Origin: an uncultured Haloferula sp.
GTDB taxonomy: Bacteria; Verrucomicrobiota; Verrucomicrobiia; Verrucomicrobiales; Akkermansiaceae
DNA: 64,000 nt
Assembly (NCBI GenBank): GCA_965652295.1
Contig: CBFGTS010000004.1
Location: 160,001-224,000 of the forward strand
Direction of reading: 5' to 3'
Position 1 is the first letter of the stretch. Every line of letters begins with the position of its first letter. The position numbers are program-made. Positions 21,001 to 27,000 of the stretch are shown in pieces.

Positions 21001-24000
21001 CGGATCATCTTCTGCACCGGCAAGCTATTCTACGACCTCGCCGCCCACCGCGAGGAGCAGGAGATCGGCAACGCCGCGCTCCTGCGCATCGAGCAGCTCT
21101 ATCCGTTCCACGATGAAATGGTGGCCGCGCTGGTGAGCCAGTATCCGAACGCGTCCCAGTTCGTCTGGGCGCAGGAAGAGCCGCTCAACATGGGTGCGTG
21201 GTCCTACATTTTCCCGCGTCTCGAAAAGGTGCTCGGCCAGAAAGTCCGCTACGCCGGCCGCGGCCGCGCTTCCAGCCCCGCCACAGGCTCGAAGGCGGTG
21301 CACTACCGTGAGCAGAAGGCGCTCATCGAACAGGCCTACTCCGTTTGATAATCCTATTTCCCCACTGACCCCATGGCTATCGAAGTGAAAGTTCCGGCCG
21401 CAGGTGAATCGATCACCTCGGCGAGTGTCGCGAACTGGCGGATGAAGGACGGCGATCTCGTCCGGGCCGGCGACGTGCTGGTGACGCTGGAAACCGACAA
21501 GGTTTCCAACGAACTCACCGCCGAGGCCGGCGGTCGGATCCGTATTCTGGCTCAGGAAGGCGACGAGGTGGAGATCGGCAGCGTGATCGCCACGATCGAC
21601 ACCGACGTAGCGGTGCCCGCCGAAGAAGAAAAGGGCGACGGAGGGGGTGAGGCGGCTGCCCGTGAGGACGGGGATGAAGGCAAGGTCGTCTCGATCAAAG
21701 TGCCGGCGGCCGGAGAGTCCATCACATCCGCCAACGTTGCCACCTGGCACAAGCGCAACGGGGAGCAAGTGGCCAAGGGCGAGGTGTTGGTGACTTTGGA
21801 GACGGACAAGGTTTCGAGTGAACTCGAAGCGGAGGTTTCCGGGACTTTGAAGATTCTCGTGGCGCAAGGTGAGGAGGTTTCCATCGGCACCGAGATCGCC
21901 CAGATCACCATCGGTCCCGCTCCGGCGGCGACCGCGCCGAAGGAAGCGTCGAAGCCAGCCGAACCGGCTCCGGCCAAGGCGGAGCCATCGAAGTCAGAAG
22001 CCAAAGCCGCGCCCGCTCCTAAGAAGATCTCCCTCCCTGAAGCACCGGAAAAAAAGGCGGATGCCGCCCCCGTCAACGATGGCCGGACGACGCGCAAAAA
22101 GATGAGCATGCTGCGCCGCAAGATCGCGACGCACTTGGTCAACGCCCAACAGACCGCGGCGATCCTGACGACCTTCAACGAGGTCGACATGTCGCAGGTG
22201 ATGAAGCTGCGCAAAGACGTCCAGGAGAGCTTCGTGGCGAAGCATGGCGTGAAGCTCGGCTTCATGTCCTTTTTCGTGAAAGCCGTCGTGCAGGCCCTCA
22301 AGGACGTGCCACAGGTGAACGCCTCGATCGACGGCACGGACATCATTGAAAACCACTTCTACGACATCGGCGTGGCGATCGGCACCGAGAAGGGGCTGGT
22401 CGTGCCGGTGTTGCGGGATTGCGACAAGAAGAGCTTCGCGGAAATCGAAGCCGATATCATCGGCTATGCGACCAAGGCGCGTGAAGGGAAGCTGCAGCTC
22501 GACGATTTGAAGGGTGCGGTGTTCTCCATTTCGAACGGCGGCACCTACGGTTCCTTGCTGAGCACGCCGATCCTGAGCCCGCCGCAGAGCGGAATCCTCG
22601 GCATGCACGCCATCCAACAACGTCCGGTCGCCATCGACGGCAAGGTGGAGATCCGGCCGATGATGTATCTCGCGTTGAGCTACGATCATCGCCTGGTCGA
22701 CGGCAAGGAGGCGGTCACTTTTCTGATCCGCATCAAGGATTGCGTCGAGAATCCGACGCGTCTGCTGTTGGAGATGTGAAGGTTTGGGAGTGCTCCGACA
22801 TGTCGGAGCTTTCCCGGACGAGGCGGTCATGGTTCGTGACCGTCACTTCGGAGCCGACATGTCGGCTCCGGGCCAGCTCGTCAGGCGACTCACGACTTCA
22901 ACCCGAAAGCTCCGTCGTGCCGGAGCACTCCGAAAACGGGGCTTCCGCTATTTCTTTGAGGCTTCCGCCTTCGATGCCTTCCTCGCCTCCGCGACGAAAT
23001 GGTTGCACGCCTCGCGGCAGAGCAGGGGGATCGCCGGACGGCCGGTGGCGAGATATCCGGGGAAACGGCTTGCCTCACTTTCCTCAAGTGGAGTGTGGGG
23101 ATCGATTTGCCACAGGATCTTCTTCACACAGCAGTTCGAGGGTCCGCACACTTCTCTAACAAGCTGTTGCGCGCCGGGGGTGCTGAGATTTCGGGCAAAG
23201 CGATACATGCCGGTCTGGCGGTTGAGCTTGTCGCGCAGGTGTTGGACGTCCGCGTCTCCTGATTCGAGCGCAAGCCACACACCAATGGCGGCCGGATAGA
23301 ACAGGTCGAGCGCGGCGCGGAGCTGGTCGGCATCGTCGAGCAGCAACAGCCAGCCCCGCTTCAGGGAAAGCTCGCTTTTGGTGAAGCGGTAGTGGCCGTC
23401 TTCCGCCCAGGTCGAAAGCTCACGGGCGGCGGCGGGACCGGTGTGTTTTTCGAGAAAATCCAGACGTTCGACGTCGTCGAGGTGGCAAAGTGCGTAAGGG
23501 ATGCTGGCGGTGTCGGGAAGGATGGCGATTTCTCCGATCTGGCGGATGCCATCGCGGACGGCCTGGGCGAGCTTTTCGGCGATCATGGGCGGTGCGTGCG
23601 GTCGAAGTCGGCGATCTGGTCGAGAATCACGTCGGCCATGTGGCACTCGGTACCGATGGCGGACGAGTAGTAAAGGGTCTTGCCGCGGAGCGGGTGGAGA
23701 TTGTGTCGAAAGACTTCGCGCTGGCTGGCGGCGGGCCCGACCTCGGGTTCGATGCCGAGGAGCACGGGGATGTCCTGATAGCTGTGGAGACCGTCGGAGA
23801 TGAAGAACGGCACCACCACCACGTTGGGCGTGGTGGCGAGCTTGTCCCACTCCGCGATGAACGGTTGCTCCTCCATGTAGGCATCGAGCACGGCCGCGTA
23901 ACCGGCTCCCGAAGCCATGATCCGGGCCGCCTGATCCTTGATCGCCTTGGTGGAATTCTGGTTCAGTCCCGTGCCATGGCCGACGATGAACAAGGTCGTG

Positions 24001-27000
24001 GTGGAGGGATCGACCTCGGGAGCGACCTCCTTGGCGCGGCGGAGAAGCAGGTCGGTCATCGAATCATGGACGCCGACGGGCAGGGTGTAGTGCCAGGTTT
24101 TCCCGTGGCGGAGGGTGGTGGGGCCATCGAGTTCGAGTTCGCGCGGGATGACATCCTGCGTGAAGTAGCCTTCGCTGATGAAGTCGGGGACGACGTAGAT
24201 CTCGTCGGCATCGACCAGGAACCGTGCCTCGCGCATGGACGGCTCTTCTTTCCAGAAACAGCAGTGGACCTCGCGGAAAAGGCCGCGTCGGCGGAGTTCG
24301 TCGGCGTGATCGAAGTAGGGCGTGGACGAATCCGGATTCTCGGTGGATCCGTGGCCGACGATGAGCAGGGCGCAGTCGGGTTTCGGCGCGATGGGCATGC
24401 GCCCAAATTGCGCGGCGGTGCCGGGGATGCAAGCGGATTGAAGGATTGCCGGGGGAGAGCCGCGAGCCGAGGATCGCGGCGTGCGCAAGCTGCTGTTGTG
24501 GTGGGACGAAACGCTCCGGGGCGGGCCGGAGAACATGGCGGTGGATGAGTGGCTGCTGAAGTCAGCCCGCGAACCGGTGCTGCGGATCTACGGCTGGCGG
24601 GGCGCGTGGGGAAGCTGCGGGTACTTCGTGCCGGCGGCGGAGACAGCCGCGGCGCTGGGTGGCAGTCCGTGGGTGCGGCGATGGACGGGCGGCGGAATCG
24701 TCGATCACCGCTCCGACTGGACTTACACCCTGGTCATTCCGCACAACGAGCCTCTGGCCGGTGCGCGAGGCGGCGAAAGCTATCGCGTCATCCACCGCGC
24801 GCTCGCCACCGCCTTGGCGGAGTCCGGGGCCCGGCTGGCGGGTGAGCTTCCACCGGCACGCGGCGGGCGGTGTTTCGAGAAGGCGGTCGAGCATGATATC
24901 GTGGACCGGGAGGGTCGGAAGATCGCCGGGGCGGGTCAGAGGCGGACGCTTCAAGGGCTGCTGCACCAGGGTTCCTTGGCGTGGCGACCGGATCGCGCTC
25001 AGGTGGAGTTTTTCGCGGCGAACCTCGCCGCTGGCGTCGAGACGCGGATGCTCGTCCCCGATTCCGCCATGGTGGCGGGAATTATCACCGTGCGGTATGG
25101 TCTTCCTGCTTGGAACGAGCGTCGGTAAACGCTATGAACCCATGATTTCTAAAGGGTTGGCCCGGCCCTTGCTAATTTGGAGAACCTCCACGCAAGGCTC
25201 ATGTTCGAAGGCTACGACCCCGGTCAATTCTACGATGAAATGTTCTCGTCTTCCGACGAGGTCCGAAGGAGTTGTGCGGATGTTCTCGCCAAGTTCGAGA
25301 GGATGTCCGACGAGGATTTCGAGCGTCGCCGCGCTGCCTGTGACGAGCATTTCCTCCGCCAGGGGGTGACCTTCACCGTCTATCACGACGACCGCGGCAC
25401 CGAGCGGATCTTCCCTTTCGACCCCGTGCCCCGGGTGATCCCGGCCGATGAGTGGGAAACGCTCGAGGCGGGCCTCACCCAGCGGATCATCGCGCTGAAC
25501 CTTTTCCTGCACGACATCTACCACGATCAGCAGATCGTTCGCGACGGCCTCGTGCCGCAGTATCACATCGACGGTGCCAAGCATTACCGTTCCGAGTTCC
25601 GGGGCATCGATGTGCCGGGCGACATTTACATCCACATCTGCGGCTCTGATTTGATCCGGGGCGATGACGGCCAATTCTACGTGCTGGAGGATAACGGCCG
25701 CTGCCCCTCCGGCGCGTCCTATCTGTTGGAGAACCGCAACGCGCTCAAGCGGGCTTTTCCCGAGATCTTTTCGGGCTCACGCGTAAGACCGGTGGACGCC
25801 TACCCGGCGGAGGTGCGCAAGATGCTCCACCACGTCTCGCCCCGGCGGGAGGGGGATCCGGTGTGCGTGCTGCTGACCCCCGGTTGCTACAACAGCGCGT
25901 ATTTCGAGCACTGCTATCTGGCGCGCGAGATGGGCATCGAGATTGTGGAAGGGCGCGACCTCGTGGTGATGGATGACTTCGTCTACATGCGCACGACCAA
26001 GGGGCTGGTGCGGGTGGATGTGATCTACCGCCGGATCGACGACGATTTCCTCGATCCCACCGTGTTCCGAAAGGATTCGGCGCTGGGCGTGCCCGGGCTT
26101 ATGCGGGCTTACCGGGCAGGCAACGTCGCGCTGGCCAACGCCGTCGGCACCGGTGTGGCCGACGACAAGGTCATCTACCGCTTCGTGCCGGACATGATCC
26201 GCTACTATCTGGGCCAGGAGCCGATCCTGCCGAACGTGCCCACCTATCTCGCCTCGGAGGAGGAGGACCGGAAATACATCCTCGATCATTTGCCCGAACT
26301 CGTGGTCAAGGCGGCCAACGAGTCCGGCGGATACGGCATGTTGATGGGGCCGGCCGCGACCAAGGCCGAGATCGAGGAGTTCCGGCAACGTATTCTCCAC
26401 GATCCGCGGAACTACATCGCTCAGCCGGTCGTTTCACTTTCGACATGCCCGACCGCAGGCGAAGGGGGCATGGCCGGCCGGCACGTCGATCTGCGACCTT
26501 ACATCGTCTACGGCAAGGATGTGAAAATCGTCCCGGGCGGCCTGACCCGGGTTGCCTTGCGTGAAGGCTCGCTAGTGGTGAACTCCTCGCAGGGCGGGGG
26601 CAGCAAAGACACTTGGGTTCTGAGGGATTGAACTATGCTATCACGAGTCGCCAACAGCCTGTATTGGATGGTCCGCTATATCGAGCGGGCGGACAACCTG
26701 GCCCGGTTGATCGAGGTCAACGAGCGGGTTTTGCTCGATTTCGGCGTTGATGAGGCAAGCCGGGAGGAGACCTTCTGGCGGCCGATCGTCGCCAGCACCG
26801 GGGACGAGGATCTCTACTTCGAGCTGAATCCCGGCGGGGATGGATCGCGCTCGGTGGTCCATTTCCTGACGTACGACCGGCAGAACCCGAACAGCATTTC
26901 CTCATGCATCGCGCTGGCCCGCGAGAACGCCCGCATGGTGCGTGACCAGCTTTCCGAGGCGCTGTGGGAGGAGATCAACTCCCTCTACCTGTTTGCCAAT

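What a model noticed while it worked through the whole genome (the two positions that open the first line are those of the whole stretch)
22948..24398. Haem made by a hybrid sirohaem/ChdC route with no HemE or ferrochelatase; a CbiX-linked DR2241 Fe-S protein tracks the r [...]
This aerobe has no HemE, HemF/N, HemY/G or ferrochelatase but has CbiX (g01201), fused AhbAB (g02292, g02334) and ChdC/HemQ (g01656), so haem b is predicted to come via sirohaem and coprohaem. Many relatives with the same set lack AhbC, the only known enzyme for the step between AhbAB and ChdC. The uncharacterised DR2241/Fer4_23 protein g01200, overlapping cbiX, co-occurs with ChdC and is the candidate for that missing, oxygen-tolerant step.
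Evidence so far: Own gene set: call 17. In 41 relatives: URO-D family 5, ferrochelatase 2, ChdC family 39, AhbAB 38, 36 of 36 near-complete, AhbC 20 at E<=1e-40, DR2241 38; G032, the one with full HemE and HemH, lacks ChdC and DR2241. In 61 class-wide genomes DR2241 18, ChdC family 21, both 17; 14 of those 17 lack ferrochelatase. Five single-contig genomes, two of 0.9 Mb, have AhbAB, DR2241 and ChdC but no HemE, ferrochelatase or AhbC orthologue. DR2241 lies near CbiX in 1,366 of 2,197 genomes with both. Haloferax volcanii also has DR2241 and needs ChdC aerobically while lacking PgoX and CpfC (PMC5746218, passages, call 163). Paper searches 15, 18, 33, 36, 37, 161, 226, 228 listed nothing on this; PMC1356436 [...]
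(Added by a program. Inside this text positions count along the whole contig: contig position 160,001 is position 1 of the stretch shown here. "Call 12" and the like, gene names such as g00115 and contig names such as C1 are that model's own, and its searches are not shown. The text may have been shortened before it was handed on; [...] marks where a part breaks off. The agent that wrote the report below was given it as the finding of a first reader that could run no searches.)

Follow-up and report, generated by a model that had tools for sequence, protein, structure and literature searches.

The report
Hybrid haem route, missing enzyme relocated
This bacterium and many relatives appear to make haem by joining two known pathways, leaving one step with no known enzyme; the flagged iron-sulfur protein more likely helps an earlier iron-insertion step, and a reductase-like protein encoded elsewhere is the better candidate for the gap.

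Summary
The gene pair is real: a PRK02395-clade CbiX overlapping a four-cysteine DR2241/Fer4_23 gene. The genome lacks HemE, HemY, HemH, HemF, HemG and also SirC/CysG-N. It has CobA, AhbAB, ChdC and two AhbC/D pairs beside NO-metabolism genes. The hybrid route is well supported: a 0.9-Mb relative read in full keeps cobA, cbiX, DR2241, ahbAB and chdC, with no AhbC/D and no sirohaem enzyme. DR2241 as the AhbC substitute is less likely (~0.2). It follows CbiX (fused in 116 of 117 long hits), never co-occurs with SirC/CysG-N in 121 class genomes, persists in 4 genomes without AhbAB or ChdC, and often sits beside cobA and sulfite/nitrite reductase. A specific aldo-keto-reductase clade tracks ChdC more tightly (30 of 40 with, 1 of 15 without). 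It lies next to chdC in 4 of 5 AhbC-less haloarchaea and has a divergent member in this genome. The scan had noted an AKR-linked operon of this kind once before (e1-6485214). A 2021 paper names the haloarchaeal AhbC gap as unresolved. There is no biochemistry.

The parts
23583..24398 (-). cbiX, two-domain class II chelatase of the PRK02395 (haloarchaeal 'cbiX2') clade, 271 aa; predicted sirohydrochlorin ferrochelatase
   Evidence: only CbiX in the genome
23976..23978 (-). CbiX His141, aligns with His127 of Paracoccus CbiX, which is essential for ferrochelatase activity
   Evidence: alignment to 4ccs (position counted by hand); PMC4063343 passages
23784..23786 (-). CbiX His205, aligns with the essential His187 of Paracoccus CbiX
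22948..23586 (-). DR2241 + Fer4_23 protein, 212 aa, start codon overlapping the cbiX stop; same fold as the C-terminal half of PDB 2JH3
   Evidence: model pLDDT 92; Foldseek TM 0.74 and VIA Z 19.8 to 2JH3, next Z 3.7
23209..23220 (-). Conserved RQ[TS]G motif (residues 123-126)
   Evidence: R123, Q124, G126 invariant in 27 sequences; motif survey
23005..23148 (-). Four cysteines C147, C153, C190, C194, inferred ligands of a 4Fe-4S cluster
   Evidence: C153, C190, C194 invariant and C147 at least 90%; Pfam Fer4_23; cluster binding inferred, not shown

Best explanation
The pair is a two-part sirohaem-forming unit. CbiX inserts iron into sirohydrochlorin. DR2241 is its dedicated 4Fe-4S partner, serving as a redox or iron-handling module; in bacteria with no SirC it may also take the two electrons from precorrin-2. 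The sirohaem feeds sulfite/nitrite reductases and a hybrid haem route: AhbAB removes two carboxyls, an unknown oxygen-tolerant step removes the C2/C7 acetates, and ChdC finishes haem b. AhbC/AhbD, where present, cover anoxic growth. The leading candidate for the unknown step is a specific aldo-keto-reductase clade (about 0.45 for that step; G000 member on contig C8, 8211-9362), most plausibly an NADPH-binding partner that lets the substrate's own iron drive oxidative acetate loss. Shown: gene content, linkage, conserved residues, fold. Inferred: every activity; the AKR chemistry is a guess.
For: DR2241 follows CbiX: 116 of 117 long homologues are CbiX fusions. The CbiX clade occurs in 32 of 32 DR2241-positive class genomes, 17 of 17 positive and 0 of 8 negative haloarchaea. 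It excludes SirC/CysG-N in the class: DR2241 in 40, SirC in 21, overlap 0 of 121; CbiX clade in 0 of 17 SirC genomes tested. G038, G062, G074 and G119 have DR2241 with HemE+HemH but no AhbAB or ChdC hit; all four keep the four cysteines. Of 80 diverse loci, 15 have cobA and 8 a sulfite/nitrite reductase within 8 kb (4 of the 8 confirmed by Pfam). One Chloroflexota operon reads AKR-chdC-hemA-ahbAB-cobA/hemD-sirC-cbiX-DR2241-hemL. Of 12 ChdC genomes without DR2241, 10 have SirC; a small CbiX sits beside chdC in 10 of 11 such loci fetched. AKR clade at 300 bits or more: 30 of 40 ChdC genomes, 1 of 15 without ChdC, 16 of 17 DR2241-positive and 0 of 8 HemE/HemH haloarchaea; beside chdC in 4 of 5 AhbC-less haloarchaea. 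G039, read in full, has the route with no AhbC/D and no sirohaem enzyme. Both chelatase histidines are kept. Haloarchaeal cbiX2 was already predicted to be the sirohaem ferrochelatase (PMC8305020, PMC3403918).
Against: Haloarchaea have SirC as well (52 of 53 DR2241-positive), so DR2241 is not simply a SirC substitute and its job there is unexplained. Genus g2 has no DR2241 and no SirC in 15 of 15 genomes, yet the three tested have AhbAB/C/D. Paracoccus CbiX complements without such a partner. DR2241 is present in 19 of 22 gap genomes against 16 of 22 for the AKR at my threshold; G004, G065, G071, G094, G095 and G113 have no AKR hit at E 1e-42, and none was found in 20 stretches near haem genes of these and two related genomes. 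A divergent AKR like G000's scores only 106-133 bits and would be missed. G000's AKR sits on a long branch, has lost the catalytic Asp and Lys, and had no haem gene within 10 kb in 51 loci. The two genomes that best separate the candidates (G057, G087) are 95-96% complete drafts. 65 of 80 CbiX loci have no cobA nearby. D. radiodurans has a second CbiX paralogue (DRA0012), so its DR2241 need not make sirohaem. Genomes are related, and the 80-genome set was hand-picked.
Confidence: 0.58

Rival explanations
1. One reading: DR2241, docked on CbiX, is the oxygen-tolerant replacement of AhbC. The chelatase fold holds didecarboxysirohaem and the 4Fe-4S cluster drives one-electron fragmentation that releases the acetates.
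For: Present in 19 of 22 class gap genomes and in all 6 AhbC-less, HemE-less haloarchaea tested. All 8 haloarchaea lacking it have HemE+HemH. It coexists with SirC in haloarchaea and in L198, so another job is needed there. The motif is degraded in some AhbAB-less hosts: RQLGRK in G119; RQTGTL and a lost GHG site in D. radiodurans.
Against: Retained with its four cysteines in 4 genomes with no AhbAB or ChdC hit, and in sulfite/nitrite-reductase cassettes. Not found in G057 and G087, which have SirC, AhbAB, AKR and ChdC but no AhbC, HemE or HemH hit. Zero overlap with SirC in 121 genomes is not predicted by this reading.
Confidence: 0.2
2. No separate enzyme fills the gap. ChdC (peroxide, Tyr radical, the substrate's own iron) or the divergent AhbAB also removes the acetates. 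DR2241 and the AKR are helpers, for example for electron supply or for clearing a two-carbon by-product.
For: ChdC defines all gap genomes and divergent AhbAB is in 21 of 22. The divergent AhbAB is a distinct, highly conserved clade with an altered first HxYxR motif. G000's AKR lacks two tetrad residues.
Against: Two distinct ChdC types (22-28% identical to each other) occur in gap genomes, and both travel with the same AKR clade. The divergent AhbAB coexists with ordinary AhbC/D and no ChdC in genus g2. M. barkeri AhbAB gave no coprohaem without AhbC in E. coli (PMC3942049 passages); that test used a canonical AhbAB and no ChdC.
Confidence: 0.14
3. There is no de novo aerobic route. AhbC-less genomes import haem or coprohaem, and the retained genes serve sirohaem enzymes or salvage.
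For: G000 has two sirohaem-type reductases and its own AhbC/D pairs, so it does not itself need a new step. Many of the genomes are drafts.
Against: G039 (single contig, read in full) keeps hemA, hemC, hemL, cobA-hemD, cbiX, DR2241, ahbAB, the AKR, chdC and a haem-copper oxidase but has no sulfite/nitrite reductase hit. H. volcanii needs ChdC for aerobic growth in medium without added haem (PMC5746218), though it does have AhbC.
Confidence: 0.08

Closest known systems
Deinococcus radiodurans DR2241 (PDB 2JH3)
   Same: Same two modules, fused there; sequence match E 9e-6 and 4e-20, fold Z 19.8.
   Different: Split into two genes here. 2JH3 lacks the GHG motif of the C-terminal chelatase site, which is intact here. 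No function in the PDB title; I did not see the structure paper.
Paracoccus pantotrophus CbiX, sirohydrochlorin ferrochelatase (PDB 4CCS; PMC4063343)
   Same: Two-domain class II chelatase with both essential C-terminal histidines; that host also lacks an obvious precorrin-2 dehydrogenase.
   Different: Different clade (38 bits); no Fe-S partner reported in the passages read.
Sirohaem-dependent (Ahb) haem pathway
   Same: CobA, chelatase, AhbAB; AhbC/D-like pairs in G000.
   Different: In gap genomes AhbC and AhbD are missing, ChdC ends the route, and in this class SirC is usually missing too.
Coproporphyrin-dependent pathway (UroD, CgoX, CpfC, ChdC)
   Same: ChdC over the NF008913 cut-off, with the YPMSK and His motifs.
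   Different: No UroD, CgoX/HemY or CpfC.
Haloferax volcanii dual ChdC/AhbD system (PMC5746218; PMC8305020)
   Same: ChdC aerobic, AhbD anaerobic, with ahbD beside denitrification genes as in G000; same CbiX clade and DR2241 (controls).
   Different: Has SirC. The papers, in the parts read, propose no enzyme for the AhbC gap and do not mention DR2241 or the AKR.

Membership tests
DR2241 family (PF18069 + PF18009) | Both Pfam domains over their cut-offs | tested here: met
   58.3 and 67.7 bits against 26.4 and 27
DR2241 family (PF18069 + PF18009) | Fold of the 2JH3 C-terminal half and four cluster cysteines | tested here: met
   the cluster itself was not observed
Sirohydrochlorin ferrochelatase (CbiX/SirB, class II) | CbiX domains and the two catalytic histidines | tested here: met
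Sirohydrochlorin ferrochelatase (CbiX/SirB, class II) | Inserts Fe into sirohydrochlorin | not testable with these tools
   needs cysG complementation or an assay
PRK02395 equivalog NF002671 | Score over the curated cut-off | tested here: inconclusive
   250.6 against 258 bits; many relatives pass
AhbC (radical SAM deacetylase), for the DR2241 protein | Radical SAM/SPASM domain | tested here: not met
   no such family match; this lowers membership only, not a possible analogous role
SirC/CysG-N precorrin-2 dehydrogenase, for the DR2241 protein | NAD-binding Rossmann domain | tested here: not met
Ahb pathway (genome G000) | AhbAB, AhbC and AhbD present | tested here: inconclusive
   AhbAB over cut-off; AhbC-like 404 of 650 bits, AhbD-like 311-338 of 500 bits, TIGR04053 passed
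Ahb pathway (genome G000) | SirC or CysG present | tested here: not met
Coproporphyrin-dependent pathway (genome G000) | UroD, CgoX and CpfC upstream of ChdC | tested here: not met
Aldo-keto reductase, for G000 C8:8211-9362 | PF00248 domain | tested here: met
   84 bits
Aldo-keto reductase, for G000 C8:8211-9362 | Catalytic tetrad Asp-Tyr-Lys-His (tetrad recalled) | tested here: not met
   Tyr and His kept, Asp and Lys replaced; all four kept in the other 40 clade members aligned

The most novel reading that the evidence does not exclude
A fourth, oxygen-tolerant route to haem b is shared by Verrucomicrobiia, haloarchaea and some Chloroflexota. It runs through sirohaem and coprohaem and uses a new kind of enzyme, not a radical SAM enzyme, to remove two acetates from a tetrapyrrole: the linked AKR clade, DR2241, or both. 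An Fe-S-coupled chelatase stands in for SirC/CysG upstream.
Probability: 0.55. Interest if true: 0.88.

Novelty: new variant of a known kind. Interest (0 to 1): 0.7.

Why it matters
The 2026 review passages I read describe three haem pathways. Curators of haloarchaeal genomes state that it is unresolved if and how species without ahbC make haem (ahbC in 107 and chdC in 161 of 166 genomes; PMC8305020 supplement). The same gap shows here in a bacterial class, including a 0.9-Mb genome with no other user of sirohaem. It now has two named, separable candidates that can be tested by deletion in Haloferax and by an existing E. coli co-expression assay. A positive result would add new C-C cleavage chemistry on tetrapyrroles, give a function to a structural-genomics orphan fold, and correct haem-auxotrophy calls for these lineages.

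Tried and rejected
1) A route that bypasses methylation (iron-uroporphyrin to coprohaem): rejected, CobA is in 115 of 121 genomes including both 0.9-Mb ones. 2) DR2241 as a pure SirC substitute: rejected as a general rule, 52 of 53 DR2241-positive haloarchaea have SirC. 3) Loss of the Met-Tyr after RQxG as a sign of lost deacetylase function: dropped, because the complete L198 operon also reads RQSGRY and AhbAB-less G062/G074 keep RQTGMY. 4) Fusions of the AKR clade to haem enzymes: 4 long singleton hits, none with a haem-pathway domain; three look like mis-called ends and one carries a flavin oxidase part. 5) Whether G000's AKR is nested in or sister to the linked clade: unresolved, AU p 0.33. 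6) Fold searches gave nothing beyond 2JH3; Atlas searches added no function. 7) A complex prediction for AKR with ChdC was not available, so binding is untested. 8) Paper searches: DR2241 (one relevant table row), 2JH3 (top 20 of 37, nothing relevant). The listings and the passages read did not link DR2241 or an AKR to haem synthesis; most listed papers were not opened and subscription journals are not held. 9) DUF1802 travels with the AKR in many loci but also occurs in G062/G074, which lack ChdC; kept only as a lead.
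Full report
The locus. Window 24398-23583 (minus strand) encodes a 271-aa two-domain CbiX and 23586-22948 a 212-aa protein with DR2241 and Fer4_23 domains; the start overlaps the cbiX stop. 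Both match the fused D. radiodurans protein of PDB 2JH3. A model of the second (pLDDT 92) matches only that entry (TM 0.74; Z 19.8, next 3.7). CbiX His141 and His205 align with His127 and His187 of Paracoccus CbiX, both essential for iron insertion (PMC4063343 passages). Four cysteines and an RQ[TS]G motif are the conserved core of DR2241. The family has 944 representatives at 50% identity. Closest named homologues are from Haloferula.

The genome. G000 is 98.1% complete. It has hemA, hemC, hemB, hemL and cobA-hemD, ChdC, a canonical and a divergent fused AhbAB, and two AhbD/AhbC-like pairs. Both pairs are followed by nnrS, and one lies between a multicopper/cytochrome c gene and a NorQ-type gene, much as ahbD lies among denitrification genes in Haloferax (PMC5746218, Introduction and Results read). 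HemE, HemH, HemY, HemF and HemG were not found. Because G000 has AhbC-like genes, it cannot itself show a gap; relatives do.

Class survey, 121 genomes drawn at 92% completeness or more, G000 included. DR2241 40, SirC/CysG-N 21, ChdC 48, AhbA 71 at E 1e-6 (14 over the cut-off, the rest a conserved divergent clade), CobA 115. DR2241 and SirC overlap in 0; DR2241 and ChdC in 36. DR2241 without ChdC: G038, G062, G074, G119, none with an AhbAB hit. ChdC without DR2241: 12, of which 10 have SirC. Further families were searched in a hand-picked set of 80: 55 of the 120 relatives (32 of 39 DR2241-positive, all 12 ChdC-only, 11 others) and 25 of 61 haloarchaea (all 8 negative, 17 of 53 positive). With my thresholds (AhbC 300 bits, HemE 350 bits plus a ferrochelatase), 22 of the 55 have ChdC and neither AhbC nor HemE+HemH; 19 of these carry DR2241, and G057, G087 and G095 do not. 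The four ChdC-less DR2241 genomes all have HemE+HemH. The CbiX clade is in 32 of 32 DR2241 genomes, in G095 and G097, and in 0 of 17 SirC genomes. In the ChdC-only group a small CbiX lies beside chdC in 10 of 11 loci fetched. So within this class CbiX+DR2241 and SirC (with a small CbiX or a longer CysG-N) are alternatives, which points to the sirohaem step. Kin are not independent, and I give no p-value.

Haloarchaea. DR2241 is in 53 of 61 and SirC in 58 of 61, together in 52. All 8 genomes lacking DR2241 have HemE+HemH and no AhbC at my threshold; 16 of 17 positive ones lack HemE+HemH, and 6 of those lack AhbC. Five of these six were checked and have ChdC and an ahbAB-sirC-hemA cluster. This ties the pair to haem synthesis but fits either reading, and shows that DR2241 is not merely a SirC substitute. 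Pfeiffer and Dyall-Smith predict that haloarchaeal cbiX2 is the sirohaem ferrochelatase and call the ahbC gap unresolved (PMC8305020, passages and supplement part 8 of 19); PMC3403918 makes the same cbiX2 suggestion (passages).

Neighbourhoods. 116 of 117 long homologues are CbiX-DR2241 fusions. Among the 80 best of 563 loci found with a CbiX alignment (Gemmatimonadota, Rubrobacter, Chloroflexota, haloarchaea, Chthoniobacterales by record title), 15 have cobA, 8 a sulfite/nitrite reductase and 6 sirC within the flank; one has chdC or ahbAB; 65 have none of these. The cysteines are kept in the reductase-linked copies. The one complete operon, L198, reads AKR-chdC-hemA-ahbAB-cobA/hemD-sirC-cbiX-DR2241-hemL with no ahbC in the stretch.

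The AKR candidate. I did not see that locus, but tested the idea on other DNA. A profile from G032, G030 and L198 (the first two match by construction) scores 300 bits or more in 30 of 40 ChdC genomes and 1 of 15 without ChdC (a partial hit), against 28 of 40 and 4 of 15 for DR2241. In haloarchaea it is in 16 of 17 DR2241-positive genomes, missing only in the one with HemE+HemH, and in 0 of 8 negative ones. It lies within 1.5 kb of chdC in 4 of 5 AhbC-less haloarchaea and back to back with cbiX in G020, G068 and G116, and accompanies two distinct ChdC types. G000 has a divergent member (C8:8211-9362). It falls with the linked clade against 15 other AKRs (100/100; long branch), shares clade-specific motifs, and a profile of its close kin scores full-length clade members 107-145 bits against at most 82 for other AKRs. 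Against this candidate: 10 of the 40 ChdC genomes, 6 of them gap genomes, have no hit at E 1e-42; none was found near their haem genes in the stretches fetched; the G000-type has lost two tetrad residues and shows no haem-gene linkage in 51 loci. Whether those genomes hold the divergent type is untested.

A minimal case. G039 (917,278 bases, one contig) was read in full. It has cobA-hemD, cbiX, DR2241, divergent ahbAB, the AKR, chdC, hemL and a cytochrome c oxidase subunit I, and no tblastn hit at E 1e-4 to sulfite/nitrite reductase, AhbC, AhbD, SirC, HemE, HemY, HemH, HemF or HemG. Of six radical SAM motifs, five are MiaB, HemW, MqnE, LipA and MqnC; the sixth, scanned only in part, gave no family at E 1e-40 and was not hit by the AhbC or AhbD queries. 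Sirohaem has no other evident user there, which is the strongest support for the hybrid route. It does not separate DR2241 from the AKR.

Mechanism and verdict. Shown: gene content, linkage, residues, fold. Inferred: CbiX makes sirohaem with DR2241 as Fe-S partner (0.58); DR2241 is the AhbC substitute (0.2); ChdC or AhbAB moonlights (0.14); no de novo route (0.08). For the missing step alone I put the AKR clade at about 0.45. AhbC removes the ring A and B acetates by an unresolved mechanism (PMC7242693 and PMC3942049 passages); an NADPH- and oxygen-dependent alternative using the substrate's iron is my conjecture. D. radiodurans has DR2241 without AhbAB or SirC (controls), but also a second CbiX paralogue (PMC1274311 passage), so it is weak evidence. 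Other papers seen as passages only: PMC13564367, PMC10548856, PMC8529089. The names nirK, norB and norC and the AKR tetrad are recalled, not from calls. No paper in searches was seen to propose either candidate; most listed papers were not opened. Interest 0.7.

Noticed in passing
window 24481-25128 (+): Lipoate-protein ligase-like gene (PF21948) divergent from cbiX across an 82-base gap; cbiX-DR2241 converges on the sucA-sucB genes, which the ligase may serve.
   Followed up: no
G000 C9:195591-196730; L079-L094: Divergent fused AhbAB clade (HVVxR and HCYWR motifs), in most of the 71 of 121 genomes with an AhbA hit and in a Chloroflexota operon; it scores far below NCBIfam cut-offs, so annotation may miss it.
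   Followed up: partly
L176:1762-2376; L277-L286; G000 C1:454687-455250; G039 near 848000: DUF1802 repeatedly lies beside the haem-linked AKR and is kept in the 0.9-Mb genome.
   Followed up: partly
L177:11735-12448; L180:8396-9103: A ferredoxin-NADP reductase-like gene lies beside divergent ahbAB in G057 and G087, the two genomes lacking both DR2241 and AhbC.
   Followed up: no
G124, G125, G131, G141, G147, G150, G156, G172: Eight of 61 haloarchaea carry HemE and a ferrochelatase and lack the cbiX2-DR2241 pair and the AKR, that is an apparent switch to the coproporphyrin route.
   Followed up: partly
Genus g2 (G042, G051, G070 tested): AhbAB, AhbC and AhbD with no SirC and no DR2241; only a weak CbiX-like protein (29 bits). 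How precorrin-2 is oxidised there is unexplained.
   Followed up: partly
G000 C3:137000-154700: Island with a multicopper/cytochrome c gene, an FGE-sulfatase-domain gene, ahbD-ahbC, nnrS and nitric oxide reductase-type genes; a second ahbD-ahbC-nnrS set is on C2.
   Followed up: partly
L174, L233, L236-L239: A second haloarchaeal type of cbiX-DR2241, fused in four of the six loci, in cassettes with cobA and a nitrite/sulfite reductase.
   Followed up: partly
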